From Candidatus Aminicenantes bacterium (lineage in GTDB: Bacteria; Acidobacteriota; Aminicenantia; Aminicenantales; UBA4085): a DNA stretch of 64,000 bases. The stretch spans positions 1,271,221 to 1,335,220 of the forward strand of contig CAVSPT010000005.1 of assembly GCA_963729855.1 (NCBI GenBank), given 5' to 3'. A program made the position numbers and the translations under genes. Below are positions 19,030 through 33,573 of the stretch, one piece after another. Under the pieces are notes generated by a model that had not been told where the DNA came from, ran no database searches, and saw only the letters and a program-made list of their open reading frames with translations. Within the stretch, counting starts at the first letter, position 1. Each line of letters opens with the position of its first letter.

Positions 19030-19058
19030 TTGACAAAAAATGTCATATCGGTTAATTT
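19030..19058 (+). promoter_or_regulatory. Sigma70-like promoter upstream of pilB (TTGACA-17-TAATTT)
   Basis: -35 TTGACA at 19030-19035, 17-nt spacer, -10 TAATTT at 19053-19058. pilB ATG at 19079. Confidence 0.35.
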
Positions 19059-19078: not shown

Positions 19079-20803
19079 ATGGGCTCGACGCTGGGTGACA
19101 TTCTTGTTCGGGAGAAGATCCTCAATGCCGAACAGCTTCAAGCCGCCCAGGAATTCCAGCGCAAACACGATGTTTCCCTGGCCAGCGCCATCATCGCCCA
19201 GGCTTTCGTCTCCGCCGAGGAGATGGCCCAGGGATTGAGCCGCCAGCTGGGCTATCCTTACATCGATCTCGACCAGTTCGAGGTCTATCCCGACGTCATC
19301 AGCCTGGTCACGGTGGACGCGGCCAAGAAATACATGATCATGCCTATCCACCGCATCCGTTCCTTCCTGACCCTGGCCATGGTCGATCCGACCGACCTGG
19401 ACGTGATCGAGGACATCCGGTTCCGCACGGGCCTGTCCATCCAGCCCGTGATCGCCTCGGAATCGGGCATCATGAACGCCATCAACAAGTATTACGGGGC
19501 CTCCCACGCCATCAAGCCCAAGAAGGCGGTCGAGGACATCGAGCTGGCCGACGACAGCAAGATCAGCATCATCCAGGAAGCCAAGGAAGATTTCGATCTC
19601 GAGGAGGACGAACAGCCGGCCGACGAAGCGCCGATCATCACCCTGGTCAACTCCATTTTCGTCGAGGCCATCAAAAAGGGCGCCAGCGACGTCCATTTCG
19701 AGCCCTACGAAAAATCCTTCCGCATCCGCTACCGCATCGACGGCATCCTGTACGAGACGATGAACCTGCCGATGAAGTTTAAGAATCCCGTCCTGTCCCG
19801 GGTCAAGATCGTCTCCAACATGAACATCGCCGAGAAGCGCCTGCCCCAGGACGGACGCATCAAGCTGCGGGTCAAGCTCGACAGCGGCCAGAAGAAGGAC
19901 GTGGACATGCGCGTCTCCTCCCTTCCGACCATCTTCGGCGAGAAGATCGTCTCCCGTATCCTGGACCGGGAGAACCTCCAGATCGATCTGACCAAGCTCG
20001 GGCTGGAGCCCGAATCGCTGGAGACGCTCAGGAAGGCCATCGCCCGGCCCTGGGGAATCATCCTGGTCACGGGACCGACCGGAAGCGGCAAGACCAACAC
20101 CCTCTATTCGGCCATCTCCACGCTCAACGCCATGGAAAAGAACATCATGACGGCCGAAGACCCCGTCGAGTTCTACATCCCGGGGATCAACCAGGTCAAT
20201 ATCCGCGACGAGATCAACCTCACGTTCGCCACCTCCCTGCGGGCCTTCCTTCGCCAGGACCCCGACATCATGCTGATCGGCGAGATGCGCGACAGCGAGA
20301 CGGTGGACACGGCCATCAAGGCCGCCTTGACCGGCCATCTCGTCTTCTCCACGATCCACACCAACGACGCCGCTTCGACCCTCCACCGCCTGCTCAATAT
20401 GAACGTCGAGCCCTTCCTCGTCGCGGACTCGGTCGTCCTGATCGTGGCCCAGCGGCTGATCCGGAAAGTCTGCCGCAAGTGCGGGGTGCCCCAGAAGATC
20501 CCCGCCCGCGTCCTGACCGATCTGGGATTCCCCCCCGAGGAGGCCGAGACCGTCACCGGTTTCCAGGGCCGCGGCTGCGAGGCCTGCAACAGCACCGGCT
20601 ACAAAGGCCGCACCGGGCTCTTCGAGGTGATGGAAGTGACGCCGCCCATCAAGGAGCTCATTCTCCAGAGGGCCCAATCCAAGGACATCAAGAAGAAAGC
20701 CCTCGAACAGGGGATGATCACCCTGAGGCGGAGCGGCCTGATCAAGATCAAAGCGGGGATCACCTCGATCGAAGAGGTGATCCGGGAAACCGTCCGGGAC
20801 TAG
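19079..20803 (+). CDS. pilB: Type IV pilus assembly ATPase PilB (GspE family)
   Basis: Walker A LVTGPTGSGKTNT. Tetracysteine motif CRKCG…CEACNSTGY. N-terminal GspE/T2SS_N-like domain. Confidence 0.9.
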   Translation: MGSTLGDILVREKILNAEQLQAAQEFQRKHDVSLASAIIAQAFVSAEEMAQGLSRQLGYPYIDLDQFEVYPDVISLVTVDAAKKYMIMPIHRIRSFLTLAMVDPTDLDVIEDIRFRTGLSIQPVIASESGIMNAINKYYGASHAIKPKKAVEDIELADDSKISIIQEAKEDFDLEEDEQPADEAPIITLVNSIFVEAIKKGASDVHFEPYEKSFRIRYRIDGILYETMNLPMKFKNPVLSRVKIVSNMNIAEKRLPQDGRIKLRVKLDSGQKKDVDMRVSSLPTIFGEKIVSRILDRENLQIDLTKLGLEPESLETLRKAIARPWGIILVTGPTGSGKTNTLYSAISTLNAMEKNIMTAEDPVEFYIPGINQVNIRDEINLTFATSLRAFLRQDPDIMLIGEMRDSETVDTAIKAALTGHLVFSTIHTNDAASTLHRLLNMNVEPFLVADSVVLIVAQRLIRKVCRKCGVPQKIPARVLTDLGFPPEEAETVTGFQGRGCEACNSTGYKGRTGLFEVMEVTPPIKELILQRAQSKDIKKKALEQGMITLRRSGLIKIKAGITSIEEVIRETVRD

Positions 20804-20813
20804 GAGACCGTTC

Positions 20814-21926
20814 ATGACCCTGCCCATTCAGGACCTCCTCCAATTGACCGTCGACGCGGACGCCTCCGATCTGCACATCACGACCTACGTCCCTCCGCGC
20901 ATCCGCGTCCACGGCACGCTCAAGTCCATCGACCACCCGCCGCTGACCCCGGCCGATACGAAACAGCTGGTCTACAGCCTTCTGACCGACAAGCAGAAGA
21001 AAATTTTCGAGGAAAAGCTGGAATTGGATTTCTCTTTCGGCCTCCGGGACCTCGGCCGCTTCCGGGCCAATATCTTCATGCAGAAAGGCGCGGTGGCGGC
21101 GGCCATCCGCCGGTTCCTGCCGACCATGTGGAGCTTCCAGAAGCTGGGCATTCCGGCCCGCGTCGCCCAGCTTTGTTATCTGCCCCGCGGCCTCATCCTC
21201 GTCACCGGGCCCACCGGGTGCGGCAAATCGACGAGCCTGGCCTGCATGATCGAGCACATCAACGCCGAACGGGCGGTCCACATCGTCACGGTCGAAGACC
21301 CCATCGAGTATTTTTTCACGGCCAAGAAAGCGCTGGTCAACCAGCGCGAGCTGTTCGCCGACACGCTGTCCTATGCCAATGCCCTGCGGGCCGTGCTGCG
21401 CGAGGATCCCGACGTCGTCCTGGTCGGCGAGATGCGCGACCTGGAAACCGTGGAGATGACCATCCGGGTGGCCGAAACGGGTCACCTGACCTTCTCCACC
21501 CTGCACACCAATTCGGCCTCGGAGACGATTTCGCGGATCGTCGACATCTTCCCGCCGCAGTACCAGGCCCAGGCCCGGATCATGCTCTCGATGTCCCTGG
21601 AAGCGGTCCTGACCCAGGCCCTCCTGCCCCGGGCCGACGGCCGAGGCCGCGTCCTGGCCATGGAGATCCTCATCCCCAACGCGGCCATCCGCAACCTCAT
21701 CCGCGAGGGCAAGCTGCACATGATCTACGGCCAGATGCAGCTGGCCCAGGAAAAATCGGGAATGCAGACGTTCAATCAATCGCTGGCCGACCTCTATTTC
21801 CAGAAGCAGATCACCCGCGAAATGGCTTTCTCGGTCACCTCGTTTCCGGAAGAGCTCACCGACATCATCCAACGGCGGGAGGCCCGGCCCGCGGCTCCCA
21901 TCCCGCACCCGAGCGCGAAGCGCTAG
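20814..21926 (+). CDS. pilT: Twitching-motility (pilus retraction) ATPase PilT
   Basis: LILVTGPTGCGKSTS Walker A. PilT-like length and conserved VEDPIEY. Confidence 0.9.
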   Translation: MTLPIQDLLQLTVDADASDLHITTYVPPRIRVHGTLKSIDHPPLTPADTKQLVYSLLTDKQKKIFEEKLELDFSFGLRDLGRFRANIFMQKGAVAAAIRRFLPTMWSFQKLGIPARVAQLCYLPRGLILVTGPTGCGKSTSLACMIEHINAERAVHIVTVEDPIEYFFTAKKALVNQRELFADTLSYANALRAVLREDPDVVLVGEMRDLETVEMTIRVAETGHLTFSTLHTNSASETISRIVDIFPPQYQAQARIMLSMSLEAVLTQALLPRADGRGRVLAMEILIPNAAIRNLIREGKLHMIYGQMQLAQEKSGMQTFNQSLADLYFQKQITREMAFSVTSFPEELTDIIQRREARPAAPIPHPSAKR

Positions 21927-21938
21927 AAAGGAGCGGCC

Positions 21939-23144
21939 ATGCCACTCTACGCCTGGAAAGGCAAGAATCATTACGGCGACGCCGTCAACGGCGAGCGGGT
22001 CGCCGAATCGGCCGAAGAGCTGACCCGCATGCTGCAGAAGGAGCAGATCCAGGTCTCCGGAATCTCCTCCAAGCGCGAACCGTTCAAGATCCCCCTGCTG
22101 AACCTGGAGAAGGTCAAGCTCAAGGAGCTCTCCATCTACAGCCGCCAGCTGGCCGTGCTCATCGACGCCGAGCTTCCCCTGATTCAGAGCCTGAACATCC
22201 TGGCTGAACAGACGCGCAACAAGTACTTCAAGAAGGTCATCACCAGCGTCAGCGAGGACGTCGAGGCCGGCTCCAGCCTGAACCAGGCCAAGCGCAAGTT
22301 CCCCAAAGTCTTCGACGACCTCTACTGCAACCTGGTGGCCTCGGGGGAACAGAGCGGCTCCCTGGATGTCATGCTTCAGCGTCTGGCCGACTACATCGAA
22401 CGAATCGTCAAGCTGCGGAGCCAGGTCCGCCAGGCCATGATCTATCCCTCGGCCATCGTCACCTTCGCCATCCTGGTGGCCATCTTCCTGCTCTGGAAGG
22501 TCATCCCCATCTTCTCCAATATTTTCGCCGAGATGGGCGCGGCCCTGCCGAGCATCACCCGGGGCGTCATTGCCCTGAGCCATTTCGTCCAGAACGACAT
22601 CGTGTTCGTCTTCGCCGGCCTCATCGCCGCGGTCTTCCTCTTCCGTTATTACCGGAAAACACCCCCTGGGCGCCAGGTCGTGGACCGGGCCATCCTGCGG
22701 GCGCCGCTGTTCGGCAAACTCCTGTCCAAGGTGGCCATTTCCCGCGTCACCCGGACCCTGAGCACGCTTCTATCGGGCGGCGTGTCCATGCTCGAATGCC
22801 TGAAGATCTCGGCCTCCACGGCCGGCAACGTGGTCATCGAACAGGCCGTCATGGATGCCCGGCGGATGGTCTCCGAGGGGCGTAGCATGACCGACGCCTT
22901 CAAGGTCGGGGGCCGCTTTCCCTTCATGATGACCCAGATGATTAAGGTCGGCGAGGAGACCGGCACCCTTGACCAGATGCTGTCCAAGCTGGCCGATTTC
23001 TACGACGACGAGGTTTCCACCTCGGTCTCGGCCCTTCTGTCCATGCTCGAGCCGATCATGATGATCTTCGTCGGCGGCATCGTCGGCGGCCTCATCATGT
23101 CCATGTATCTGCCGATCTTCAGCCTCATGTCCCAGATTCAATGA
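21939..23144 (+). CDS. pilC: Type IV pilus inner-membrane platform protein PilC (GspF family)
   Basis: Two T2SS-F-type repeats. About 400 aa with three TM regions. Confidence 0.85.
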   Translation: MPLYAWKGKNHYGDAVNGERVAESAEELTRMLQKEQIQVSGISSKREPFKIPLLNLEKVKLKELSIYSRQLAVLIDAELPLIQSLNILAEQTRNKYFKKVITSVSEDVEAGSSLNQAKRKFPKVFDDLYCNLVASGEQSGSLDVMLQRLADYIERIVKLRSQVRQAMIYPSAIVTFAILVAIFLLWKVIPIFSNIFAEMGAALPSITRGVIALSHFVQNDIVFVFAGLIAAVFLFRYYRKTPPGRQVVDRAILRAPLFGKLLSKVAISRVTRTLSTLLSGGVSMLECLKISASTAGNVVIEQAVMDARRMVSEGRSMTDAFKVGGRFPFMMTQMIKVGEETGTLDQMLSKLADFYDDEVSTSVSALLSMLEPIMMIFVGGIVGGLIMSMYLPIFSLMSQIQ

Positions 23145-24412
23145 AGACGGTCCGGCCGAACACGCTGAACCTCATCGTGTTCCGGACCATCATCGTCACG
23201 ACCCTGCTCCTGGCCTCGATCATCATTCAGGTGTCCACGGCCGTCTTCCTTCCGTTGGGCCCGTTCTATATCATCATCCTGGGTTCGTACGCCTCGTGCC
23301 TCGTCTTTCTGGTCCTTTACCTGCGCGATTCCCACATCCAGCGGCAGGCCTATGCCCAGATCATCGTCGACGTCCTGATCATCACGCTGCTGGTCTACAT
23401 CACCGGCGGGATCAGCGGCCATCTCTACGTCCTCTATATCTTCCCCATCCTCGCGGCCGGATTGGTGCTTCCCGAACGGGCCGCTTACCTGACCGCTTCG
23501 ATCTCGGCCATCTTCTTCGGCGTGCTCGCGGACGGCATGTTTTACGGCCTCATCCCGTCCTTCAAGGCCGATGAGCAGCGCGAGGTCTCGGCCGGCCTCG
23601 TCCTGTACACCATCTTTCTGGCCTGGGCCCTCTTTTTCGCCATCGCCTACCTGTTCGCCCATTTCGGGCGCAACGCCCGGCGGTCCCGCGAGGCCCTGGA
23701 GCAGATCCAATACGAGCTGCAGGTCAAGGAACGGCTGGCCGAGGCGGGCCAGATGTCGGCCCTGATCGCCCACGAGATCCGCAATCCGCTGGCGGCCATT
23801 TCCGGGGCCGTTCAGGTCCTCCAGGCCGAGCTGCGGCCGGCCGGACAGGCCTCCGAGCTGATGTCCATCGTCCTGCGCGAATCGCGGCGCGTTTCCCAGA
23901 CCATCGACCAGTTCCTGAATCTGGCTTCGCCCGGGCCCCAGGAATTCACCTGGTTCCGGCCGGAGGAGATCATCCGGGAAACGTTGACCCTGCTGCGGAT
24001 GAGCGGCGATCTCGGCGACCGGGTCGCCGTGGAAGGGAACGCCGCGTCGGGCGTCCCGGATTTCTACGGCAGCCCGGTCCAGTTCAAACAGGTCGTCTGG
24101 AACCTTCTTCGGAACGCCCTGTCGGCGATGCCGGAAGGCGGCGTCCTGCGCATCGAAGGCTCCCACGGGCCGGGCCGGGCCCTGACCGTGAGCGTGGCCG
24201 ACAGCGGCCGGGGCATGACCCCCCAGGAGCGGGAGCGCATTTTCGAACCCTTCTTTTCCACGTTTCCCGGGGGGCGCGGGCTGGGGCTGGCCGTCGTCCG
24301 CCGCATCGTCGACGACTATCAGGGGACCATTCGCGTGCAGTCCGAGCCGGGACGGGGAACGGAATTCCGGCTGACCCTGCCGGACCGCGCCGATCCGCGA
24401 AAGGACCGATGA
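23141..24412 (+). CDS. pilS: Sensor histidine kinase, PilS-like (multi-TM sensor + HisKA + HATPase_c)
   Basis: Six N-terminal TM segments. H-box LIAHEIRNPLAAI. ATP-binding G-boxes. Start overlaps the pilC stop. Confidence 0.75.
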   Translation: MKTVRPNTLNLIVFRTIIVTTLLLASIIIQVSTAVFLPLGPFYIIILGSYASCLVFLVLYLRDSHIQRQAYAQIIVDVLIITLLVYITGGISGHLYVLYIFPILAAGLVLPERAAYLTASISAIFFGVLADGMFYGLIPSFKADEQREVSAGLVLYTIFLAWALFFAIAYLFAHFGRNARRSREALEQIQYELQVKERLAEAGQMSALIAHEIRNPLAAISGAVQVLQAELRPAGQASELMSIVLRESRRVSQTIDQFLNLASPGPQEFTWFRPEEIIRETLTLLRMSGDLGDRVAVEGNAASGVPDFYGSPVQFKQVVWNLLRNALSAMPEGGVLRIEGSHGPGRALTVSVADSGRGMTPQERERIFEPFFSTFPGGRGLGLAVVRRIVDDYQGTIRVQSEPGRGTEFRLTLPDRADPRKDR

Positions 24413-24415
24413 CCC

Positions 24416-25828
<1,413 letters not shown>

Positions 25829-26052
25829 ATTTCAGAATCCCCGATTTTTTAGCGCATTCCGATTACCCGCCGAGGCCGTCGAAGTCCAGCGAAAAGGGGC
25901 GGGGTCATTACGTTTGATCAATTCGATGATCATGGCCAAAGTCCAGCCCGTTTTGACAATTAACGGCATAAATGGTCATTTTTTGTTGACATTGACCGTA
26001 GTCGATTTGGATGCTAAAATACTATGTTGTTTATTTTCAGTCAGATAGAGAT

Positions 26053-26068
26053 TGGCATGGGGATTGCA
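26053..26068 (+). promoter_or_regulatory. Sigma54 (-24/-12) promoter TGGCAT-N5-TTGCA upstream of pilin gene 1
   Basis: Matches the TGGCAC-N5-TTGCW consensus. It sits about 55 nt upstream of the ATG, downstream of pilR, and an AT-rich region lies upstream. Confidence 0.6.
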
Positions 26069-26122
26069 ATAGAAAGGGCGTCCTGCAATTGCGGGACAAG
26101 ATAAAGCCATCAGGAGGTTTCA

Positions 26123-26647
26123 ATGCTTAAGAAAGAGAAAGGCTTCACCCTCATCGAGCTGCTCATCGTTGTGGCGATCATCGGCATCCTGGCCGCTCTG
26201 CTCATCCCCAACGCCATGACCGCTCTGCAGAAGGCGAAAGTCCGCGGCACCCAGAAGGACATCGCCACCATCGCCACGTCCCTGGCCGACTATGTCACGG
26301 ACCACGGCGTGCCGTTCGCGGAGAACGGGAACATCGACGCCACGGGCAAGGCCGCCCTGTCGCCGATGTACATCAAGGTGCTGCCGTTGAACGACCAGTG
26401 GGGCACGCCCTTCAAGGTCTACACGGGCGTCAACTGCAACCAGTACGGGATCACGGGCTCGGCCACGGACGACTTCCTGGTCGCCTCGTACGGGCGCGAC
26501 GCCACCATCGAGTCCTGGACGTACAATGCGGCCACGCCGGAAGCGGGGCTGTACCAGATATCGACCACGGCGGACTTCAACAAAGACCTGGTCAATCTGG
26601 ACGGATCGTTCATTCGCGGACCTCGGGCCGGCGTCTCCGCCACCTGA
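26123..26647 (+). CDS. pilA: Type IV pilin (prepilin with class III signal, N-methylation site)
   Basis: The N-terminus KGFTLIELLIVVAIIGILAA is a classic prepilin-peptidase site. RBS CAGGAGG. Confidence 0.85.
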   Translation: MLKKEKGFTLIELLIVVAIIGILAALLIPNAMTALQKAKVRGTQKDIATIATSLADYVTDHGVPFAENGNIDATGKAALSPMYIKVLPLNDQWGTPFKVYTGVNCNQYGITGSATDDFLVASYGRDATIESWTYNAATPEAGLYQISTTADFNKDLVNLDGSFIRGPRAGVSAT

Positions 26648-26670
26648 TCTTCAAACGGAACGTTCCTCCG

Positions 26671-26709
26671 GGGGCGATGCGGGAAACCGCATCGCCCCTT
26701 TTCTTTTTA
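26671..26709 (+). terminator. Rho-independent terminator after pilin gene 1
   Basis: Perfect 12-bp stem GGGGCGATGCGG / CCGCATCGCCCC with loop GAAA, followed by TTTTCTTTTT. Confidence 0.75.
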
Positions 26710-26808
26710 TACCCCAGCGGACTTGGTTCTGCGCAAGAGCGATGGGAGCGGAGGAGGAGTATCGGAGCTCGTTTCGGCCGCATCCCCTTTCCTGTATAAT
26801 GAGAACCG

Positions 26809-27516
26809 ATGTTTTTGCGGACCCTTCTCGCGGTCTTTTTCTTTGCCTTTGCCGGACTGGCCACTCTGCCCGTCTTCCTCGTCTGCCTGATCTCACGCCG
26901 GCGCGAGCCTTTACTGGAATATGCGAGGGGCGTCCTCCGCATCGGCCGATTTCTTCTAGGATTGCCCGTCCGGGTTGCCGGGCTGGAGCATCTGGGCGGG
27001 GGGGCGCCCCGCGTTTATATGGCCAATCATGTCAGTTTTCTCGATGGGCCGCTGTTGTACATCCTCGTGCCTGAACGTCTTCGGGTCATCCTGAAGAAAT
27101 CCCTTTTCCGCATCCCCATCGTCGGATCGGCCATGAAATATGCCGGATTTGTTCCCGTCGATCGGCGCGGCGTCCGCGGCGGGAAGGCCGGCATCGAGCA
27201 GGCATCCGCCCGCATACGAACGGAAGGCCTCTCCTTCCTGATCTTTCCGGAGGGAACCCGCAGTCGGGACGGCCGGATCCAGGCCTTTCGCAGGGGCGGT
27301 TTTTTCCTGGCCCTGGGGGCCGGGGCGCCGATCGTCCCCGTTTCGATTCGGGGGGCCTTCCGGATCATGCCTCGGGGGCGCTGGGTCCCCCGGCGGGGAA
27401 GCGTCGATATCATCTTCCACCCCCCCGTCGATACGGCGGCGGGGGACATGGATGCCTTGATGAAAAAAGTCCGGGCCGCCGTCGCGTCCGGCCTTGAAGG
27501 AGATCCCCATGAATGA
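26809..27516 (+). CDS. 1-acyl-sn-glycerol-3-phosphate acyltransferase-like (PlsC/LPLAT family)
   Basis: Motifs NHVSFLD (HX4D) and FPEGTRS. N-terminal TM. TATAAT lies 8 nt upstream of the ATG, suggesting a leaderless or near-leaderless transcript. Confidence 0.8.
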   Translation: MFLRTLLAVFFFAFAGLATLPVFLVCLISRRREPLLEYARGVLRIGRFLLGLPVRVAGLEHLGGGAPRVYMANHVSFLDGPLLYILVPERLRVILKKSLFRIPIVGSAMKYAGFVPVDRRGVRGGKAGIEQASARIRTEGLSFLIFPEGTRSRDGRIQAFRRGGFFLALGAGAPIVPVSIRGAFRIMPRGRWVPRRGSVDIIFHPPVDTAAGDMDALMKKVRAAVASGLEGDPHE

Positions 27517-28078
27517 GCCCACGCTGGGCGGCCGGATCGGCCGGCTGGTGGATGAATTCTTCGATCGCCGCGGAAACGCGTTCCGGGAGGCCGCCGCGGC
27601 CTGCGCCGGGGCGTTGGCCCGGGGGGGGACGATCCTGGCGTTCGGCAATGGCGGGAGCGCGGCGGAAGCGCAGCACTTCGTCGCCGAGCTGGTCAACAAA
27701 TTCCGCAAGCCACGCCGAGCGCTTCGAGCGGTGACCCTGTCGGCCGATACGTCCATCCTGACTTCGATCGGCAACGACCTGTCTTTCGAGGCCGTCTTCA
27801 GCCGTCAGATCGAGGCCCTGGGCCGGGCCGGCGACGTCGTCGTGGCCCTCTCCACGAGCGGCCAATCGTCCAACATCGTCGCCGCCCTGGCGTCGGCCAA
27901 AGCGATGGGATTGACGACCATCGCCGTGACGGGCCGGGGAGGTGGAAAGCTCGGCCCGTCGACCGATTTCCTGCTGGACGTGGATTCCGACGAGACTCCT
28001 CGTATCCAGGAAGTCCACCTGGCGGTCATCCACCTTCTGACCGAAGAGATCGAAAACCGCCTGCAGCTTTTTGATTGA
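27509..28078 (+). CDS. SIS-domain protein, phosphoheptose isomerase GmhA / DiaA-like
   Basis: GNGGSAAEAQHF…VALSTSGQS SIS motifs. Start overlaps the plsC-like stop (ATGAATGA). Confidence 0.7.
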   Translation: MNEPTLGGRIGRLVDEFFDRRGNAFREAAAACAGALARGGTILAFGNGGSAAEAQHFVAELVNKFRKPRRALRAVTLSADTSILTSIGNDLSFEAVFSRQIEALGRAGDVVVALSTSGQSSNIVAALASAKAMGLTTIAVTGRGGGKLGPSTDFLLDVDSDETPRIQEVHLAVIHLLTEEIENRLQLFD

Positions 28079-28198
28079 GGACGGCCATTTGTGACAATAT
28101 TTGTCTATCACATGGGCATAAAATGACGTTATTTAGCCGGATAAAGCCCGCCTTTTATTTTATTTGTTTATTTTCTGTTACTTGTGGTACTGTAATTT

Positions 28199-28214
28199 TG
28201 GCATGATAACCGCA
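28199..28214 (+). promoter_or_regulatory. Sigma54-like promoter TGGCAT-N5-CCGCA upstream of pilin gene 2
   Basis: GG and GC dinucleotides have the correct -24/-12 spacing. The -12 element is weaker than in copy 1. An AT-rich tract lies upstream. Confidence 0.4.
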
Positions 28215-28257
28215 TAGATTATTATGTCACCCGACGCAGTTTCAGAGGAGGTATGTA

Positions 28258-28779
28258 ATGAAACGCGAAAGCGGATTCACGCTCATTGAGCTGCTCATCG
28301 TTGTGGCGATCATCGGCATCCTGGCCGCTCTGCTCATCCCCAACGCCATGACCGCTCTGCAGAAGGCGAAAGTCCGCGGCACCCAGAAGGACATCGCCAC
28401 CATCGCCACGGCCCTGGCCGGCTATGTGACGGACCACGGCGTGCCGTTCGCCGAGAACGGGAACATCGACGCCACGGCCAAGTCCGCCCTGTCTCCGATG
28501 TACATCAAGGTGCTGCCGTTGAACGACCAGTGGGGCACGCCCTTCAAGGTCTACACGGGGGCCAACTGCAACCAGTACGGGATCACGGGCTCGGCGTCGG
28601 ACGACTTCCTGGTCGCCTCGTACGGGCGCGACGCCACCATCGAGTCCTGGACGTACAATGCGGCCACGCCGGAAGCGGGGCTGTACCAGATATCGACCAC
28701 GGCGGACTTCAACAAAGACCTGGTCAATCTGGACGGATCGTTCATTCGCGGACCTCGGGCCGGCATCTCCGCCACCTGA
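28258..28779 (+). CDS. pilA: Type IV pilin paralog (about 95% identical to 26123..26647)
   Basis: Same prepilin leader/N-terminus (GFTLIELLIVVAIIGILAA). Differs from copy 1 at about 10 residues. RBS GAGGAGG. Confidence 0.85.
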   Translation: MKRESGFTLIELLIVVAIIGILAALLIPNAMTALQKAKVRGTQKDIATIATALAGYVTDHGVPFAENGNIDATAKSALSPMYIKVLPLNDQWGTPFKVYTGANCNQYGITGSASDDFLVASYGRDATIESWTYNAATPEAGLYQISTTADFNKDLVNLDGSFIRGPRAGISAT

Positions 28780-28797
28780 TTCTGAGACGCGGCTGTG

Positions 28798-28832
28798 AAA
28801 GGGCGGCGCCTGAAGCGCCGCCCTTTTTTTTG
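28798..28832 (+). terminator. Rho-independent terminator after pilin gene 2
   Basis: GGGCGGCGC-ctgaa-GCGCCGCCC followed by a T9 run. Confidence 0.8.
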
Positions 28833-28933
28833 TCCGGATTCCGGTGCGGGCCTCGAAAGAGGATCCCAACCGCGGCGATCGATTCTCGTCCGGGTCAATC
28901 GCCCAACGCCGCGGAGAGGCGTCCGGCGATCCG

Positions 28934-31270
28934 CTATTTGATCCCGGTGATCTCCCGGATCTTGTCGACGCCCGCCGTCCCGCTGTTGAACAGCCAGGCC
29001 TTGGCGCTCTGCAGAAGACGCTGGAATTGGGACTTATGCAGCTCGAGGCGCTCTTCCGAAAGGGCCAGGAGATGGGGATTGAAGAAGGGGGGCGTCTTGG
29101 TCCCGGCCGTCTTTTTCATCCCGGGGACCTCGCCGGCGGCGAGGATCCGCAAGGCTTCTTCGGAAGATAGCTCGATCAGGGCGGGAGAGAAGGCGTCGCT
29201 GCGAAGAAGGACGATCTGACGGAGGGTGGTGCGGCGGACGACGGCGGCCGGGCCGGCGATCCAATTCGGATCAAGAAGGGCGTGGGCTTCCTTGGCCGCC
29301 TTGTAGCAGAACGGCGCGCCCCGGTCGAGGCGGCAGTCCTCCCGGCGCAGGCACTCGGCATCTTTGCAATCGTCCTTGCGCAGGACGACATTTTCGCATT
29401 TGCCGCCGTCGAAGAGGGGGGCCAGGCGGCCGAAATCCTCGACCGTCCGGGTCGGCAGGAAGACCTTCCGTTCGACCGCGTCGGCCAGGGCGGCCTTGCC
29501 GGCGTAGCGGACGAAGACCACGTCGCTGGCGTGGAAACGGAAACGCGGGTCGCGCAGCAGGCCGAAAAAGAGCCCGGTCTTGTTCGTCCCCGGCGGCCCG
29601 ACCAGGATGAGGCCTTCGCCCCCGGCGTCGACCGACATGCCGCGCACCGGGTGGACCCCGAACGAGCGCTCTCCGACGTCGGCGACCAGGCCGAGAGCCA
29701 GGCTCCTCAGGGGGCCATAGGCGTCGCAGTTGATCAGAAAACCCGTTTTCGTTTCGGTGTTGTAGAGGGCCCGCGCTTCGCGCCCCGGGATCCCGTCGAC
29801 GGCGTAGACGACGCCGTGAGGTTCCAGGCCGGCCTCGAGCTGGGCCGGATACCAATTGTCGACCCAGAAGTCATGGAGATGGGCGACATTCGTCCGCAGC
29901 TGGACGACCACCCCGTTGATGACGGCATTCCATTCGAAGTAATTCTCGGGCGTCAGAAGGCGTTCGATCTCGGCCGCCAGGCCGTCCCGGACGGGGACGG
30001 TCAGGGCCGCGTCGACCGGGACGGCGGCCCGGATGCGGGTGGCATAGTTGCTGAGGGCCACTCTCTGGGACTTGCGGGCCGGCTTGAGAGCGGCCAGGGC
30101 TTTGGCGATCCGGTCGAGGCCCTTTTCCAGGTTCTCCATCGAGGTGGCGTAGGAGAGTCGGATGTAGTCGTCCGCGCCGAAGGAGTCGCCCGGGACCACG
30201 GCGACATTGGCTTCCCTGAGGAGATAATAGGCCAGGCCGTTGGAATTGCGGATCGGCGTCCCGTTGAACTCCATGTCGTGATAGGCCTTGACGCTGGGGA
30301 AGAGGTAGAAAGCGCCCTGCGGCTTGAAGCAGGAGACGCGGGGGATGGCCCCGAGCTTGATCAGGCCGTAGTTGCGCCGGCGCTGAAACTCCTGGACCAT
30401 CCGGGACACCTCGAATTGGGGCCCGTTCAGGGCTTCCTGGGCGGCTCTCTGGGAGATGGAAGCCGCGTTGGACGTCGTGTGGCTTTGGATCTTGGCCATG
30501 CCGGCGATGATGTCGGCCGGGCCCAGGGCGTAGCCGATCCGCCAGCCGGTCATGGAGTACGATTTTGAGGGACCGTTGATGAGGATGGTCTTTTTCTTGA
30601 TGTCCTCGCCCAGGGCGGCGAAGCTGGTGAACTTGAACTGGTCGTAGACGAGCGAGGCATAGATTTCGTCGGCGACGACATAGAGATCCTCCCCGCGGAC
30701 GACGTCGGCCAGGGCCTGCAGCTGTTCGCGGGTGTAGGCCGCGCCCGTCGGATTGGAAGGAGAGTTGAGGATGACGGCCTTGGTCGCCGGCGTGATGTGG
30801 GCCTTGAGGGCCTCGGCGGTGAGGACGAAGCCGTCCTCCTCCCTGGTTTCGACATAAACGGCCTTGCCCTTGGCCAGCTTGACGACGTGAGGATAGGTGA
30901 CCCAATAGGGGACGGGCACGATGATCTCGTCGCCCGCGTCGACGATCGCCTGGAACAGGTGGAAAAGGGAACTCTTGGCTCCGCTGGAGACGATGACTTC
31001 GGCCGGCGTGTAGGCCAGGCCGAAGTCTTCTTTGAAGCGGGCGATGACCGCTTTTTTGAGGGCCGGGGTCCCGTCGTTCTCGGTATACTTGGTGAAATTG
31101 TCGCGGATCGCCTGGATCCCGGCCGACTTGACGTTCTCGGGAGTGGGAAAATCCGGCTCGCCGATGCTCAGGTCGACGACGTCGATCCCTTCCGCCTTCA
31201 TGGCCTTCGCCTTGGCCGCGATGCGCAGCGTGGGCGAGGCCCCGATTTGCTTGACTCGTTCGGAAACCAT
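28934..31270 (-). CDS. Fusion protein: class-I/II (aspartate-type) PLP aminotransferase (aa 1 to ~400) + C-terminal HprK-like P-loop kinase domain with a Cys cluster (aa ~400-778)
   Basis: N-terminal half has aminotransferase motifs, including NGPSKSYSMTGWRIGY (PLP lysine). C-terminal half has HPVRGMSVDAGGEGLILVGPPGTNKTGLFFGLL…HASDVVFV, resembling the HprK kinase core (HG.lvdv.G.GvLitGdSGvGKSE…lvaDD) with a deviant Walker A. A CxnC cluster KCE…DDC…AEC…EDC…PFC follows. Confidence 0.65.
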   Translation of the reverse strand: MVSERVKQIGASPTLRIAAKAKAMKAEGIDVVDLSIGEPDFPTPENVKSAGIQAIRDNFTKYTENDGTPALKKAVIARFKEDFGLAYTPAEVIVSSGAKSSLFHLFQAIVDAGDEIIVPVPYWVTYPHVVKLAKGKAVYVETREEDGFVLTAEALKAHITPATKAVILNSPSNPTGAAYTREQLQALADVVRGEDLYVVADEIYASLVYDQFKFTSFAALGEDIKKKTILINGPSKSYSMTGWRIGYALGPADIIAGMAKIQSHTTSNAASISQRAAQEALNGPQFEVSRMVQEFQRRRNYGLIKLGAIPRVSCFKPQGAFYLFPSVKAYHDMEFNGTPIRNSNGLAYYLLREANVAVVPGDSFGADDYIRLSYATSMENLEKGLDRIAKALAALKPARKSQRVALSNYATRIRAAVPVDAALTVPVRDGLAAEIERLLTPENYFEWNAVINGVVVQLRTNVAHLHDFWVDNWYPAQLEAGLEPHGVVYAVDGIPGREARALYNTETKTGFLINCDAYGPLRSLALGLVADVGERSFGVHPVRGMSVDAGGEGLILVGPPGTNKTGLFFGLLRDPRFRFHASDVVFVRYAGKAALADAVERKVFLPTRTVEDFGRLAPLFDGGKCENVVLRKDDCKDAECLRREDCRLDRGAPFCYKAAKEAHALLDPNWIAGPAAVVRRTTLRQIVLLRSDAFSPALIELSSEEALRILAAGEVPGMKKTAGTKTPPFFNPHLLALSEERLELHKSQFQRLLQSAKAWLFNSGTAGVDKIREITGIK

Positions 31271-32823: not shown

Positions 32824-33573
32824 TCAGCGTTCCCCATAAGCCATGAAGAGCAGGCTTTTGCGTTTGAGAATGTCTTTTTGGATCTGCACGATTTCGCGGA
32901 TGCCTTGATCCGCCAACTTGAGTAATTCGGTCAGCTGATGGCGGGAAAAGGGGCTCCGCTCGGCCGTGGCCTGGACTTCCAGGAGTTGACCGCGGTCGGT
33001 CTGGACCACGTTCATGTCCACGTCGGCCGTCGAGTCCTCGTCGTAATCCAGGTCCAGAAGGAGCTCCTCGCGGACCATCCCGACGCTGACCGCCCCGACC
33101 AAGTGGCGGAGCGGCATCTGGTCGACGATCTTGCGGTCCATCATTTTCTTCAGGGCCAAGGCCAGGGCCACGCAGGCGGCGTTGATGGAGGCGACTCGGG
33201 TCCCCCCGTCGGCCTGGATGACGTCGCAATCGACGATGATCTGGCGCTCGCCGAGGGTCCGCAGATCCGTGACCGCCCGCAGGGTCCGGCCGATCAGGCG
33301 CTGGATCTCCTGGCTGCGTCCCGAGGGATAGCCCTGCTGGCGTTCCCTCTGGGTGCGTTTCTCCGTGGACCGCGGGAGCATGGCGTATTCGGCCGTGACC
33401 CAGCCGCCCCCCGAGCCCCGCAGGAAGGGAGGGACCTTGTCCTCGATCGTGGCCGCGGCGACGACGCGCGTCTTGCCGCACTCGATCAGGGCCGAGCCGT
33501 CGGCGAAATCCAGGTAATCGAGCTGGAACCGGATCGGCCTCAGCTCCTCGGGCGTTCGGTTGTTCGATCTCAT
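32824..33573 (-). CDS. rph: Ribonuclease PH
   Basis: …RPIRFQLDYLDFADGSALIECGKTRV…GWVTAEYAMLPRST… ATG at 33573 overlaps the lpxL-like stop. Confidence 0.9.
   Translation of the reverse strand: MRSNNRTPEELRPIRFQLDYLDFADGSALIECGKTRVVAAATIEDKVPPFLRGSGGGWVTAEYAMLPRSTEKRTQRERQQGYPSGRSQEIQRLIGRTLRAVTDLRTLGERQIIVDCDVIQADGGTRVASINAACVALALALKKMMDRKIVDQMPLRHLVGAVSVGMVREELLLDLDYDEDSTADVDMNVVQTDRGQLLEVQATAERSPFSRHQLTELLKLADQGIREIVQIQKDILKRKSLLFMAYGER

What the first reader, a model, noticed from the sequence alone, without database searches (positions are those of the whole stretch)
26123..28832. Tandem ~95%-identical pilin paralogs, each with its own sigma54-type promoter and strong terminator, separated by PlsC-like and GmhA-like genes
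About 500 bp are duplicated at near identity (26145-26647 versus 28278-28779). The two copies differ at roughly 10 codons, mostly in the C-terminal globular half. The promoters, 5' UTRs and terminators differ completely. Between the copies sit a lysophospholipid acyltransferase homolog and an SIS phosphoheptose-isomerase homolog, whose TATAAT lies 8 nt from the ATG. Two hypotheses follow. One is that recent gene conversion keeps two differentially regulated major pilins. The other is that the intervening genes take part in pilin modification, with heptose as a glycan precursor and acylation. The second hypothesis is speculative.
Basis: partly seen in the sequence, partly recalled or inferred. 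Interest (0 to 1): 0.55.

Follow-up and report, generated by a model that had tools for sequence, protein, structure and literature searches.

The report
Pilin gene copies homogenised by gene conversion
An uncultured Aminicenantes bacterium carries two (and elsewhere a third) almost identical type IV pilin genes. Each has its own PilR/sigma-54 promoter, and gene conversion keeps them alike, while the two genes between them look like an ordinary, separately transcribed envelope-biosynthesis operon rather than pilin-modification genes.

Summary
pilA1 (26123-26647) and pilA2 (28258-28779) share 492 of 507 nt (97.0%). The identity starts at the Gly(-1) codon of the prepilin cleavage site and stops at the stop codon. 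Leaders, UTRs and terminators are unrelated in sequence.

The window is the Aminicenantes (Acidobacteriota) type IV pilus cluster: pilB-pilT-pilC-pilS-pilR-pilA1-[plsC-gmhA]-pilA2. Both pilins have a -24/-12 sigma-54 box, the only two matches in 64 kb. Both also have an upstream TGACAA-N5-GKC palindrome and a strong terminator, so they share one regulatory design.

Gene conversion is well supported. The split arrangement, with position-specific leaders and promoters, is also present in seven related genomes. In five of them where both copies could be compared, the copies are 66-89% identical. Against a sister population, 21 sites group the paralogs by genome, 7 by position and 1 crosswise. Paralog dS is 0.065, against 0.24-0.53 for flanking orthologues.

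The pilin-modification idea is not supported. plsC-gmhA is a translationally coupled operon behind pilA1's terminator, with its own conserved TATAAT 8 nt before the ATG. It is syntenic in most relatives, as are the unrelated downstream housekeeping genes.

This is a new member of a known kind, of moderate-to-low interest.

The parts
19031..19044 (+). TGACAAAAAATGTC palindromic motif 35 nt upstream of pilB, overlapping a TTGACA-17 nt-TAATTT sigma-70-like promoter. Candidate operator shared with both pilin genes.
   Evidence: Third and independent match to TGACAAWWWWNGKC (3 matches in 64 kb, 0.01 expected). Sequence. Found at the same place upstream of pilB in most relatives.
19079..20803 (+). 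pilB, the assembly ATPase (MshEN + T2SSE domains).
   Evidence: Pfam PF00437 at 1.5e-132 and PF05157.
20814..21926 (+). pilT-like retraction ATPase.
   Evidence: Pfam PF00437 at 1.6e-50; 370 aa with no N-terminal domain.
21939..23144 (+). pilC, the platform protein.
   Evidence: Pfam PF00482, two repeats, 3.3e-65.
23141..24412 (+). pilS, the sensor histidine kinase.
   Evidence: Pfam 6TM_PilS (PF25323), HisKA and HATPase_c.
24416..25828 (+). pilR, a sigma-54-dependent response regulator (REC, AAA+ with GSFTGA loop, HTH_8).
   Evidence: Pfam Sigma54_activat at 1.9e-73, Response_reg and HTH_8. The GSFTGA loop is visible in the translation.
25954..25967 (+). TGACAATTAACGGC, candidate PilR upstream activating site for pilA1, 99 nt before the -24 box.
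   Evidence: Conserved position in relatives, often as a pair 20-21 nt apart.
26053..26068 (+). Sigma-54 -24/-12 promoter of pilA1 (TGGCATGGGGATTGCA).
   Evidence: Identical in sister population locus L078, and conserved upstream of the first pilin in nearly all loci.
26123..26647 (+). pilA1, a prepilin of 174 aa with leader MLKKEKG | FTLIE.
   Evidence: N_methyl at 1.5e-9, weak T2SSG. AlphaFold pLDDT 85.8, and the best structural matches are pilins and pseudopilins.
26141..26647 (+). Homogenised (gene-conversion) tract, copy A. It covers the mature pilin coding sequence.
   Evidence: 492/507 nt identical to 28273-28779. Site-pattern and dS tests.
26670..26709 (+). Intrinsic terminator of pilA1.
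   Evidence: 13-bp stem plus U-tract. -29.5 kcal/mol, z = -5.6.
26795..26800 (+). TATAAT -10 box, 8 nt before the plsC-like ATG. This spacing implies a leaderless or near-leaderless mRNA.
   Evidence: TATAAT sits 7-10 nt before the ATG in most of the 23 loci inspected.
26809..27516 (+). plsC-like acyltransferase (LPLAT/AGPAT family). It has an N-terminal TM helix and the NHVSFLD (HX4D) and FPEGTRS motifs.
   Evidence: PF01553 at 4.9e-29. TIGR00530 scores 96.9 bits, below its cutoff of 102.95. Motifs are visible in the translation.
27509..28078 (+). gmhA-type sedoheptulose-7-phosphate isomerase, 189 aa, translationally coupled to plsC (ATGAATGA overlap).
   Evidence: SIS_2 at 7.1e-28. gmhA equivalog models score 180-190 bits, below their cutoffs. 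Best PDB match is Burkholderia GmhA 2xbl at 5e-46, with the His/Glu/Gln/His site conserved.
28092..28105 (+). TGACAATATTTGTC, candidate PilR upstream activating site for pilA2, 107 nt before the -24 box.
28199..28214 (+). Sigma-54 -24/-12 promoter of pilA2 (TGGCATGATAACCGCA).
   Evidence: Identical in sister population locus L075. A -24/-12 box precedes the downstream copy in L011, L012, L026, L028 and L029.
28258..28779 (+). pilA2, a prepilin of 173 aa with leader MKRESG | FTLIE.
   Evidence: N_methyl at 2.2e-9. Identical to database protein P0002 from a 1.38-Mb contig.
28273..28779 (+). Homogenised (gene-conversion) tract, copy B.
28797..28835 (+). Intrinsic terminator of pilA2.
   Evidence: 13-bp stem plus T8. 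-30.4 kcal/mol, z = -4.3.

Best explanation
The window holds the main type IV pilus locus of an Aminicenantes bacterium: pilB-pilT-pilC-pilS-pilR followed by two complete major-pilin genes. Each pilin gene is its own transcription unit, made of a palindromic upstream site (presumably bound by PilR), an AT-rich tract, a sigma-54 -24/-12 promoter, a Shine-Dalgarno sequence, a leader peptide, the mature pilin and a strong terminator.

The duplication is old. Homologous recombination between the copies (gene conversion) has repeatedly overwritten the mature-pilin coding part and nothing else. As a result the two genes, and a third copy elsewhere on the same contig, now encode nearly the same mature pilin behind different leaders and flanks.

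The most likely consequence (inferred) is redundancy or higher dosage of one filament subunit under the same PilS-PilR/sigma-54 control. Both products should be able to co-assemble.

The plsC-like and gmhA genes between the copies form an independent, translationally coupled operon. It is probably leaderless and sigma-70-driven, and it belongs to a conserved block of envelope and housekeeping genes. An ancestral rearrangement in this subclade placed it between the pilins.

What is shown: the anatomy, the conservation, and the conversion signature. What is inferred: PilR binding, expression, co-assembly, and the LPS or lipid role of the operon.
For: Anatomy:
- The only two -24/-12 matches in 64 kb lie 55 and 44 nt upstream of the two pilin ATGs.
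- Both terminators are confirmed.
- A shared TGACAA-N5-GKC motif lies upstream of pilB, pilA1 and pilA2 (3 matches against 0.01 expected). It recurs at the same places in relatives.

Age of the duplication:
- The split order pilA-plsC-gmhA-pilA is found in L011, L024, L026, L028, L029 and L012, and in the sister population L078+L075.
- L078 and L075 overlap at 99.7% identity, and L075 is colinear with the window at 89% over 5.7 kb.
- Leaders (MLKKEKG; MKRESG/MRRESG) and both -24/-12 boxes are conserved by position between the window and the sister population.

Conversion:
- Paralog identity is 97% in the window. It is 89% in the sister population and 66-81% in L011, L026, L028 and L029.
- Informative sites are 21 by genome, 7 by position and 1 crosswise, p = 1.1e-5.
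- dS between the paralogs is 0.065. It is 0.23-0.44 for the between-genome comparisons of the pilin genes, and 0.24-0.53 for plsC, gmhA and the aminotransferase between the two genomes.
- In the NJ tree, the window's two copies pair at 92% bootstrap inside a 100% window+sister clade. In the L011/L028/L026/L024 group the downstream copies still form their own clade (91%).
- A third copy, P0132, has leader MHLRKG and lies on the same 1,380,231-nt contig. It differs from mature PilA1 only at the two residues where it matches PilA2.

Independence of plsC-gmhA:
- pilA1's terminator precedes the operon.
- TATAAT lies 7-10 nt before the ATG in most of the 23 loci inspected.
- An LpxL-like gene and LpxK lie 5-7 kb downstream, and LptC/LptA-like domains are present in the window.
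Against: - No expression data exist, so promoter use, PilR binding and leaderless initiation are inferred from sequence only.
- The upstream motif pattern was derived from two of its three window matches. At pilB it overlaps a -35-like TTGACA, so it could be a promoter element rather than an operator there.
- The -12 element of pilA2 (CCGCA) is weaker than that of pilA1 (TTGCA). No terminator separates gmhA from pilA2 (z = 0.05). Some differential expression is therefore possible and not excluded.
- The sister-population sequences come from short-read metagenome contigs, where a 500-nt repeat can be mis-assembled. One such chimera, L086, was seen.
- Reads for the window's own contig could not be inspected.
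Confidence: 0.8

Rival explanations
1. The intervening plsC-like and gmhA genes are pilin-modification genes. Heptose would serve as a glycan precursor and the acyltransferase would acylate the pilin, with the genes kept beside pilA for that reason.
For: - The pair lies directly next to the pilin gene or genes in 33 of 44 informative species-level loci.
- Pilin accessory and modification genes are known to sit immediately downstream of pilA in Pseudomonas (TfpO, TfpW; 10.1101/2020.04.19.049825, PMC11841053).
- gmhA keeps its catalytic and metal-binding residues.
Against: - A strong terminator and an own conserved -10 box separate the operon from pilA1.
- No transferase that could put a sugar on a protein is present.
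- The unrelated downstream genes are equally syntenic.
- In L054 and L056 the acyltransferase stays beside the aminotransferase gene, 4.1 kb from the pilins. Nine loci keep the pilins without the pair.
- In the lineage represented by L054 and L055, the gene directly after the pilins is instead a GT-C (PMT_2) glycosyltransferase, a more credible pilin glycosylase.
- LpxL, LpxK and Lpt genes nearby give gmhA an ordinary LPS role.
- To my knowledge, no pilin heptosylation or PlsC-type pilin acylation has been described.
Confidence: 0.06
2. The near-identity reflects a very recent duplication that created pilA2 (or purifying selection alone), not gene conversion between old paralogs.
For: High identity and sharp boundaries at the edges of the coding sequence could in principle come from a recent copy event.
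Against: - A gene with the pilA2-specific leader, the identical -24/-12 box and colinear flanks exists at the same position in the sister population. A downstream copy is also present in six further genomes.
- In five of these genomes where both copies could be compared, they are 66-89% identical.
- Synonymous divergence between the copies (0.065) is 4-8 times lower than between orthologous flanking genes. Selection on the protein cannot explain that.
- The mosaic of 7 position-specific sites among 21 genome-specific sites indicates partial tracts.
Confidence: 0.04
3. The duplicate is an assembly artefact (a repeat expansion or a chimera).
For: Reads could not be checked. Short-read contigs of relatives often break at, or are chimeric across, the pilin repeat.
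Against: - The copies differ at 15 positions and have unique, functional-looking flanks on both sides, with different leaders, Shine-Dalgarno sequences, promoters and terminators.
- The same arrangement is assembled independently in seven other genomes or populations.
- Both proteins are on record from the same 1.38-Mb contig.
Confidence: 0.02
4. The proteins are type II secretion major pseudopilins (GspG), as public annotations call them, rather than type IV pilus subunits.
For: - JGI and NCBI names for relatives are 'type II secretion system protein G'.
- There is a weak T2SSG Pfam match, and the best NCBIfam model is GspG.
- The top Foldseek hits include EpsG and PulG.
- The protein has a single Cys and so no D-region disulfide.
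Against: - GspG equivalog scores are 57.7 and 60.9 bits against a cutoff of 88.85. T2SSG scores are 17.9 and 20.8 bits against a cutoff of 21.
- The genes follow pilB, a PilT-type retraction ATPase, pilC, a 6TM-PilS kinase and PilR. This is a type IVa pilus context.
- No GspC, D, H, I, J, K, L or M is present in the window.
Confidence: 0.05

Closest known systems
PilS-PilR / sigma-54 control of the major pilin gene (Pseudomonas aeruginosa, Myxococcus xanthus, Geobacter sulfurreducens pilB-pilT-pilC-pilS-pilR-pilA type loci)
   Same: - The gene order is the same, and the kinase has the 6TM PilS domain.
- The activator is an NtrC-type protein with a GAFTGA-like loop.
- -24/-12 promoters precede the pilin genes, with an upstream palindromic site at enhancer distance.
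- PMC13170364 summarises that PilS/PilR modulates pilin transcription and cites the Geobacter case. The species list and gene order rest on my own knowledge.
   Different: - Two pilin genes each carry their own enhancer-promoter-terminator set.
- A housekeeping operon sits between them.
- The pilin globular domain is GspG-like and lacks a disulfide.
- The organism is an uncultured Acidobacteriota lineage, and nothing has been tested experimentally.
Genomes with several major-pilin paralogs: Legionella pneumophila PilA1/PilA2 (PMC13170364), Xylella fastidiosa PilA1-3 (PMC9956873), Streptococcus sanguinis PilA1-3 (PMC11121087)
   Same: Two or three related, complete pilin genes lie at or near one pilus locus. 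The open question is the same: redundancy or division of labour.
   Different: In those species the paralogs are clearly diverged and have distinct phenotypes (Xylella: opposing effects; Legionella: PilA2 but not PilA1 in pili). Here the mature parts are 96-99% identical, so neofunctionalisation of the protein is unlikely.
Neisseria pilE/pilS antigenic variation by gene conversion (PMC4023411)
   Same: Non-reciprocal transfer of pilin coding segments occurs between several loci in one genome. Tract ends fall inside or at the edges of the mature coding region.
   Different: - Neisseria donors are silent, promoterless, 5'-truncated cassettes, and the outcome is diversification of one expressed gene.
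- Here all copies in the window are complete and separately promoted, and the net outcome is homogenisation.
- No G4 or other initiating element was looked for or seen.
Concerted evolution of duplicated bacterial genes by RecA-dependent conversion (for example tufA/tufB in Salmonella and rRNA operons; from my own knowledge)
   Same: Paralogs within a genome are more alike than orthologues between genomes. Identity is confined to the coding part and the flanks are diverged.
   Different: The gene here is an extracellular filament subunit rather than a translation component. Homogenisation is episodic and lineage-specific, with relatives at 66-89%.
GspG/EpsG/PulG major pseudopilins (PDB 4lw9, 3gn9, 1t92)
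   Same: These are the best structural matches to the predicted model (Foldseek probability 0.91-1.00, TM 0.59-0.65 normalised to the target). They also have a short globular domain and no disulfide.
   Different: - Family scores are below the cutoffs.
- The protein is about 35 residues longer.
- The genomic context is a type IVa pilus cluster, not a type II secretion system.
Pilin accessory modification genes downstream of pilA (P. aeruginosa TfpO, TfpW; 10.1101/2020.04.19.049825, PMC11841053)
   Same: Genes sit directly after the pilin gene. In the Aminicenantes lineage represented by L054 and L055, a GT-C (PMT_2) membrane glycosyltransferase occupies that position, as TfpW does.
   Different: The window has no such transferase. 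Its neighbours are a soluble sugar-phosphate isomerase and a glycerolipid-type acyltransferase, with their own promoter.

Membership tests
Type IV pilin (prepilin with class III signal peptide) | Short basic leader ending in Gly, then Phe(+1) and Glu(+5), followed by a hydrophobic alpha1-N helix. | tested here: met
   MLKKEKG|FTLIELLIVVAIIGILAA and MKRESG|FTLIE... PF07963 at 1.5e-9 and 2.2e-9, and TIGR02532 above its cutoff.
Type IV pilin (prepilin with class III signal peptide) | Long N-terminal helix packed on a small beta-sheet globular domain. | tested here: met
   AlphaFold model has pLDDT 85.8, with helix 10-61 plus four or five strands. The top 18 Foldseek PDB hits are all pilins or pseudopilins, though E-values are only 6e-3 to 0.3.
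Type IV pilin (prepilin with class III signal peptide) | Encoded with the pilus motor: PilB, PilC and the retraction ATPase PilT. | tested here: met
   pilB, pilT and pilC lie directly upstream. The same order is found in about 60 related loci.
Type IV pilin (prepilin with class III signal peptide) | C-terminal disulfide-bonded D-region (typical of type IVa pilins of Proteobacteria). | tested here: not met
   The protein has a single Cys (C105). This feature is not universal among pilins, so it argues against a classical proteobacterial IVa pilin fold detail, not against pilin identity.
Type IV pilin (prepilin with class III signal peptide) | Processed by a prepilin peptidase and polymerised into a filament. 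| not testable with these tools
   No pilD in the window. This needs biochemistry or microscopy.
GspG (type II secretion major pseudopilin) | Scores above the curated equivalog or Pfam thresholds. | tested here: not met
   TIGR01710 scores 57.7 and 60.9 bits against 88.85. PF08334 scores 17.9 and 20.8 bits against 21.
GspG (type II secretion major pseudopilin) | Encoded in a gsp operon with GspC, D, E, F and H-M. | tested here: not met
   None of these genes is in the 64-kb window. The rest of the genome was not available.
Sigma-54 / PilR-dependent promoter | GG-N10-GC with the TGGCAC-N5-TTGCW consensus at a suitable distance from the start codon. | tested here: met
   Two matches, the only ones in the window, lie 55 and 44 nt from the ATGs. 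The strict pattern occurs upstream of 69 of 111 pilin genes in relatives, including nearly all first copies.
Sigma-54 / PilR-dependent promoter | Cognate bacterial enhancer-binding protein with a GAFTGA loop and an upstream activating site. | tested here: inconclusive
   PilR with GSFTGA is adjacent. A conserved palindromic motif lies about 100 nt upstream of both boxes. Binding has not been tested.
Sigma-54 / PilR-dependent promoter | rpoN present, and transcription dependent on it. | not testable with these tools
   rpoN is not in the window and no expression data are available.
Concerted evolution by gene conversion | Paralogs within a genome are more similar than orthologues between genomes, although the duplication predates the split. 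| tested here: met
   - W1-W2 differ at 15 sites. W1-S1 differ at 38 and W2-S2 at 60.
- dS is 0.065 between the paralogs, against 0.23-0.38 for their orthologues and 0.24-0.53 for flanking genes.
Concerted evolution by gene conversion | Sharp homology boundaries and mosaic tracts. | tested here: met
   Identity starts at 26141 and ends at 26647. Position-specific sites cluster at both edges and in two internal patches. The third copy, P0132, is a PilA1/PilA2 mosaic.
Pilin glycosylation system (TfpO/PglL O-oligosaccharyltransferase or TfpW-type GT-C) | A membrane oligosaccharyl- or glycosyltransferase encoded beside the pilin gene. | tested here: not met
   Only PF01553 and SIS domains lie between the pilins, and none is found elsewhere in the window. 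A PMT_2 GT-C gene is present at this position only in L054 and L055.
GmhA (sedoheptulose-7-phosphate isomerase) | SIS fold with the conserved His/Glu/Gln/His active and metal site. | tested here: met
   The alignment to Burkholderia GmhA 2xbl (5e-46) keeps AQHxxxE and IQExHxxxxH. DiaA-type substitutions, known to me from memory, are absent.
GmhA (sedoheptulose-7-phosphate isomerase) | Score above the curated equivalog cutoff, with the rest of the heptose pathway present. | tested here: inconclusive
   TIGR00441 scores 179.6 bits against 209.45. PRK13936 scores 189.5 bits against 276. No hldE, gmhB or heptosyltransferase is in the window, and the rest of the genome was not available.
PlsC / LPLAT acyltransferase | HX4D and EGTR catalytic motifs plus an N-terminal membrane anchor. 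| tested here: met
   NHVSFLD and FPEGTRS are present, and the N-terminus is hydrophobic. PF01553 at 4.9e-29. The substrate is unknown: TIGR00530 scores 96.9 bits against 102.95.

The most novel reading that the evidence does not exclude
The three or more complete pilin loci (pilA1, pilA2 and the dispersed MHLRKG copy) might form a working cassette-exchange system. A roughly 670-nt promoter-to-terminator pilA1 cassette found at different places in relatives (L083, L014) would be part of it. In this reading, the free-living anaerobe shuffles mature-pilin segments among differently promoted genes (sigma-54/PilR, read-through from a constitutive operon, sigma-70-like). This would let it change or reset its pilus surface, for instance against pilus-specific phages. 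It would be an expressed-copy analogue of Neisseria pilE/pilS in an uncultured environmental phylum.
Probability: 0.1. Interest if true: 0.6.

Novelty: new member of a known kind. Interest (0 to 1): 0.3.

Why it matters
Multiple pilin genes, PilS-PilR/sigma-54 control and gene conversion between paralogs are each well known. Finding them together in Aminicenantes extends them to an abundant, uncultured wetland and subsurface lineage whose surface biology is almost undescribed.

Three practical points follow:
- These genes are annotated publicly as 'type II secretion protein G', but they are almost certainly type IV pilus subunits.
- The roughly 500-nt near-identical repeat breaks or chimerises short-read assemblies at this locus. 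Pilin 'variants' from metagenomes of this group therefore need caution.
- The conserved palindrome, the -24/-12 design and the leaderless plsC promoter are testable regulatory predictions for a phylum with no genetics.

The locus does not open a new mechanism or answer a long-standing question.

Tried and rejected
- Exact-protein look-ups of pilA1, pilA2 (P0002) and the third copy (P0132) found no contig on record. The window's own genome outside the 64 kb, including the third locus, could not be read.
- My first version of the upstream motif pattern was mis-specified and gave 0 matches. It was corrected.
- A Biopython bootstrap run timed out and was replaced by a lighter NJ bootstrap.
- Rfam found nothing above threshold in 25700-29100. 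The only weak hits sit on the terminator hairpin. No tRNA lies near the locus, so a tRNA-linked pilin island as in Pseudomonas is not the case here.
- I looked for a terminator between gmhA and pilA2 and found none.
- I tested whether the dispersed pilin loci of relatives share one context. They fall into at least three unrelated contexts: L010/L014/L019, L084/L013/L087, and L083.
- Apparent recombinant proteins P0129 and P0131 first looked like proof of ongoing conversion within a population. I set them aside because L086 joins the upstream flank of one locus to the downstream flank of another, which is typical of a short-read chimera.
- A literature search for Aminicenantes pili found nothing specific.
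- An extended -10 (TGn) for the plsC promoter was considered and dropped, because the TG directly abuts TATAAT.

Full report

Yes. Two ORFs, 26123-26647 (174 aa) and 28258-28779 (173 aa), encode prepilins. The repeat finder and a MAFFT alignment show a single long direct repeat.

Counted exactly, 26141-26647 and 28273-28779 are 507 nt with 15 mismatches, which is 97.0% identity. Identity begins at the codon for Gly(-1) of the prepilin cleavage site and ends at the stop codon. On either side the alignment falls to background.

The leaders differ: MLKKEKG versus MKRESG. In the mature part there are 8 synonymous and 7 non-synonymous differences: S53A, D56G, G75A, A77S, V103A, T115S and V171I. All but V171I lie between residues 53 and 115, and nucleotides 26466-26632 are identical.

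**2. What the genes are**

The window is 62.6% G+C. The pilins' closest relatives are hundreds of 66-94% identical proteins from Candidatus Aminicenantes/Aminicenantales MAGs. Most are annotated 'type II secretion system protein G'.

Upstream on the same strand lie:
- pilB (MshEN + T2SSE), a PilT-type ATPase and pilC
- a kinase with the 6TM PilS domain
- a sigma-54 activator with REC, AAA+ (GSFTGA loop) and HTH_8 domains

The pilins match the N-methylation motif. They match GspG models only below the cutoffs: TIGR01710 scores 57.7 and 60.9 bits against 88.85, and PF08334 scores 17.9 and 20.8 bits against 21.

An AlphaFold model built from 70 homologues has pLDDT 85.8, with a 52-residue N-terminal helix and a small sheet. 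Its top 18 PDB matches by Foldseek are all pilins or pseudopilins. EpsG, PulG and the Vibrio vulnificus pseudopilin rank among the best, at modest E-values.

With PilT, PilS and PilR present and no gsp genes in the window, these are type IV pilus subunits with a GspG-like head. They are not secretion pseudopilins.

**3. Regulatory anatomy**

The pattern TGGCAY-N5-YYGCW occurs twice in 64 kb, against 0.31 expected. The matches are at 26053-26068 and 28199-28214, which is 55 and 44 nt before the two ATGs. Each gene ends in a 13-bp GC-rich hairpin plus U-tract, folding at -29.5 and -30.4 kcal/mol with z = -5.6 and -4.3.

The upstream regions are not 'completely different'. Aligning them with relatives shows an invariant TTGGCAY-N5-TTGC and an AT-rich tract. 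About 100 nt further upstream lies a TGACA-N5-7-TGTC(A)-like palindrome.

Written as TGACAAWWWWNGKC, this motif matches three times in the window, against 0.01 expected. The matches are at 25954 (before pilA1), 28092 (before pilA2) and 19031, which is 35 nt before pilB. The pattern was derived from the first two sites, so only the third is an independent hit. At pilB it overlaps a TTGACA-17-TAATTT promoter-like site.

In the related loci the motif recurs upstream of pilB and 170-200 nt upstream of the first pilin. It often appears as two sites 20-21 nt apart, and it also precedes the downstream pilin in the split-arrangement genomes. I read it as the PilR binding site. That is an inference.

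Across relatives, the strict -24/-12 pattern precedes 69 of 111 pilin genes. These include nearly all first copies and the second copies in the window's wider clade. In more distant clades the second tandem pilin has no box of its own.

**4. The genes in between**

ORF 26809-27516 is a PF01553 acyltransferase with a hydrophobic N-terminus and the NHVSFLD and FPEGTRS motifs.

The SIS gene is best started at ATG 27509, which is preceded by AAGGAG. This gives 189 aa, the length called in relatives, and overlaps the acyltransferase stop within ATGAATGA, so the two are translationally coupled. It aligns to Burkholderia GmhA (2xbl, 5e-46) with the His/Glu/Gln/His site intact. It still scores below NCBI's equivalog cutoffs.

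TATAAT at 26795-26800 lies 8 nt before the acyltransferase ATG. A TATAAT 7-10 nt before the ATG recurs in most of the 23 loci inspected. That spacing suggests a leaderless or near-leaderless transcript from its own sigma-70-type promoter, placed behind pilA1's terminator.

No terminator separates gmhA from pilA2 (z = 0.05). Read-through into pilA2 is therefore possible.

Downstream on the other strand lie an aspartate-aminotransferase fusion, an SPFH protein, RNase PH, an LpxL-type lipid A acyltransferase and LpxK. LptC/LptA-like domains occur at the window's end.

**5. Relatives**

I surveyed 69 loci from species-representative genomes, plus loci from exact-protein look-ups, by tblastn with the window's proteins.

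The common order is pilBTCSR, then one to three tandem pilins, then plsC-gmhA. The aminotransferase, SPFH, RNase PH and LpxK genes follow on the opposite strand. Of 44 informative loci:
- 28 have plsC-gmhA directly after the pilins.
- 5 have the window's split order, pilA-plsC-gmhA-pilA. These are L011, L024, L026, L028 and L029, the genomes with the most similar PilB (85-86%).
- 2 have a 4.1-kb insertion after the pilins and no gmhA, with plsC still next to the aminotransferase gene.
- 9 have pilins but neither gene within 6.6-10.7 kb.

The split order is also present in L012 and in a sister population reconstructed from L078 and L075. Those two contigs overlap at 99.7% over 1354 nt, and L075 is colinear with the window at 89% over 5.7 kb.

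In L054 and L055, the gene directly after the pilins is a roughly 585-aa PMT_2 (GT-C) glycosyltransferase.

**6. Gene conversion**

The sister population has the same leaders by position (MLKKEKG; MRRESG) and identical -24/-12 boxes by position. Both genes therefore existed before the two lineages split.

Even so, the window's copies differ at 15 of 507 sites. The orthologous pairs differ at 38 (upstream copies) and 60 (downstream copies), and the sister's own copies differ at 56.

Among informative sites, 21 unite the paralogs of each genome, 7 unite orthologues, and 1 is crosswise. Under the orthology tree the first and third classes should be equally frequent, which gives binomial p = 1.1e-5. 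The 7 orthology sites sit at the two edges (26143-26155, 26633) and in two internal patches (26296, 26428-26430). This pattern is what partial or repeated tracts would leave.

Nei-Gojobori dS is 0.065 between the window's copies. It is 0.23 and 0.38 for their orthologues. Between the two genomes it is 0.53 for plsC, 0.30 for gmhA and 0.24 for the aminotransferase.

In an NJ tree (Kimura distances, 100 bootstraps), the window's copies pair at 92% inside a 100% window+sister clade. In the L011/L028/L026/L024 group the downstream copies still form their own clade at 91%.

Both window copies are closer to the sister's upstream copy than to its downstream copy. This suggests pilA1 was the donor.

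Intragenomic identity elsewhere ranges from 56% to 100% at nucleotide level. Other near-identical pairs occur in L008 (copies 1 and 3, with a diverged copy between them), L034, L036 and L037. Homogenisation is thus recurrent and lineage-specific in this group.

**7. A third copy**

The cluster look-up shows that the 1,380,231-nt contig carrying pilA1 (P0121) and pilA2 (P0002) also encodes P0132. P0132 is 173 aa with leader MHLRKG. Its mature part equals PilA1 except at residues 75 and 77, where it has the PilA2 states. It is not in the window, and its locus could not be fetched.

Orthologous MHLRKG loci in relatives (L084, L013/L087) lie between a nitroreductase and an M28 peptidase gene. They have no -24/-12 box and are preceded by a TATA-rich stretch. 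In the L012/L013 genome, this copy is only 77% identical to the downstream copy.

Separately, a close relative's contig (L083) carries 665 nt that are 99.1% identical to window 26043-26707. This segment runs from inside the sigma-54 promoter to past the terminator and sits in an unrelated context. The -24 GG reads AG there.

In MAG UBA4085, a stand-alone copy (L014) matches that genome's pilA1 (L028) at 96% over 678 nt, with the same promoter-to-terminator extent. How this cassette gets copied is unexplained.

One caution applies. A short-read contig (L086) joins the upstream flank of the MHLRKG locus to the downstream flank of pilA2. It is probably a chimera across the repeat, so I did not use 'recombinant' proteins known only from such contigs.

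**8. Mechanism and rivals**

The best-supported account is as follows. Two old paralogous major-pilin genes each carry the same PilR/sigma-54 enhancer-promoter design. Their mature-coding parts are kept nearly identical by gene conversion. The likely outcome is redundancy or dosage of one filament subunit.

The plsC-gmhA pair is an independent envelope-biosynthesis operon that an ancestral rearrangement placed between the pilins.

- The pilin-modification idea cannot be excluded without mass spectrometry. It has no positive support beyond adjacency, which the unrelated neighbours share.
- A recent de novo duplication and purifying selection alone are both contradicted by the comparative data.
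- An assembly artefact is contradicted by the same data.

**9. Comparison with the known, and verdict**

The parts are all familiar:
- PilS-PilR/sigma-54 pilin control (summarised in PMC13170364)
- multiple major-pilin paralogs (PMC13170364, PMC9956873, PMC11121087)
- pilin gene conversion (PMC4023411)
- pilin accessory genes downstream of pilA (10.1101/2020.04.19.049825, PMC11841053)

Compared with Neisseria, all copies in the window are complete and promoted, and the net effect is homogenisation rather than diversification. Compared with Legionella and Xylella, the proteins are too alike for neofunctionalisation.

This is a new member of a known kind. It is a tidy example of concerted evolution in an uncultured phylum and is useful for annotation and assembly practice. 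It would not surprise a specialist. Interest is 0.3.

Noticed in passing
Outside the window, on the same 1,380,231-nt source contig (protein P0132). Orthologous loci: L084 616-1137, L013/L087 3342-3863.: There is a third pilin gene with a third leader (MHLRKG). Its mature part is a PilA1/PilA2 mosaic, differing from PilA1 by 2 residues. In relatives it lies between a nitroreductase and an M28 peptidase gene. It has no -24/-12 box there and is preceded by a TATA-rich stretch.
   Followed up: partly
L083 9921-10585 (matches window 26043-26707); L014 5820-6495 (matches L028 8437-9113).: A roughly 670-nt pilA1 cassette, running from promoter to terminator, is present at 96-99% identity at unrelated chromosomal places in two lineages. 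In L083 the -24 GG reads AG, which may make that copy silent. How the cassette is copied is unknown.
   Followed up: partly
window 19031-19044, 25954-25967, 28092-28105: The palindromic motif TGACAA-N5-GKC lies upstream of pilB and of both pilins (3 hits against 0.01 expected). It is conserved at the same places across Aminicenantes loci, often as two sites 20-21 nt apart. It is a candidate PilR operator.
   Followed up: partly
window 26795-26811, and the equivalent positions in most of the 23 loci inspected: TATAAT lies 7-10 nt before the plsC-like start codon in most of the inspected Aminicenantes loci. This spacing implies a leaderless mRNA for the plsC-gmhA operon.
   Followed up: partly
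L054 11153-12931 and L055 11182-12927: In L054 and L055, a roughly 585-aa PMT_2 (GT-C fold) membrane glycosyltransferase lies directly downstream of the tandem pilins. Its position resembles that of Pseudomonas TfpW, which makes it a candidate pilin glycosyltransferase.
   Followed up: no
window 28934-31270 (-): A 778-aa fusion joins a class I/II aspartate aminotransferase (residues 1-396) to an unannotated C-terminal half of about 380 aa containing a P-loop-like GPPGTNKTG. A gene of 776-780 aa occupies the same position in the relatives checked (L001-L005, L054, L075).
   Followed up: no
L086 (short-read contig); contig ends in L075, L076, L077 and L080-L082: Short-read metagenome contigs of this group end at the pilin repeat or are chimeric across it. 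L086 joins the upstream flank of the MHLRKG locus to the downstream flank of pilA2. Pilin variants taken from such contigs are unreliable.
   Followed up: yes
L008 8603-10417; L034 9893-11304; L036 and L037 (first two of three pilins): Other genomes show independent cases of near-identical pilin pairs (90-100% nt). In L008, copies 1 and 3 are 93% identical while the copy between them is only 77% identical to either.
   Followed up: partly
window 37257-39647 (-): A ComEC-type DNA-uptake channel gene (Competence + DUF4131 + metallo-beta-lactamase domains) lies 8.5 kb from the pilin locus. This is compatible with pilus-dependent natural transformation.
   Followed up: no
window 2998-4545 (-): An ORF with an integrase core (rve) domain is present, probably an insertion sequence transposase.
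   Followed up: no
window 33570-34787 (-): An LpxL-type lipid A acyltransferase (PF03279, 2.1e-59) lies between RNase PH and LpxK. My simple gene caller missed it in favour of a spurious plus-strand ORF (33615-34199).
   Followed up: yes
L019 versus L010/L014: The stand-alone pilin in L019 has the same flanking genes as in L010 and L014, but in the opposite order relative to the pilin. This suggests a local inversion of the pilin gene.
   Followed up: no
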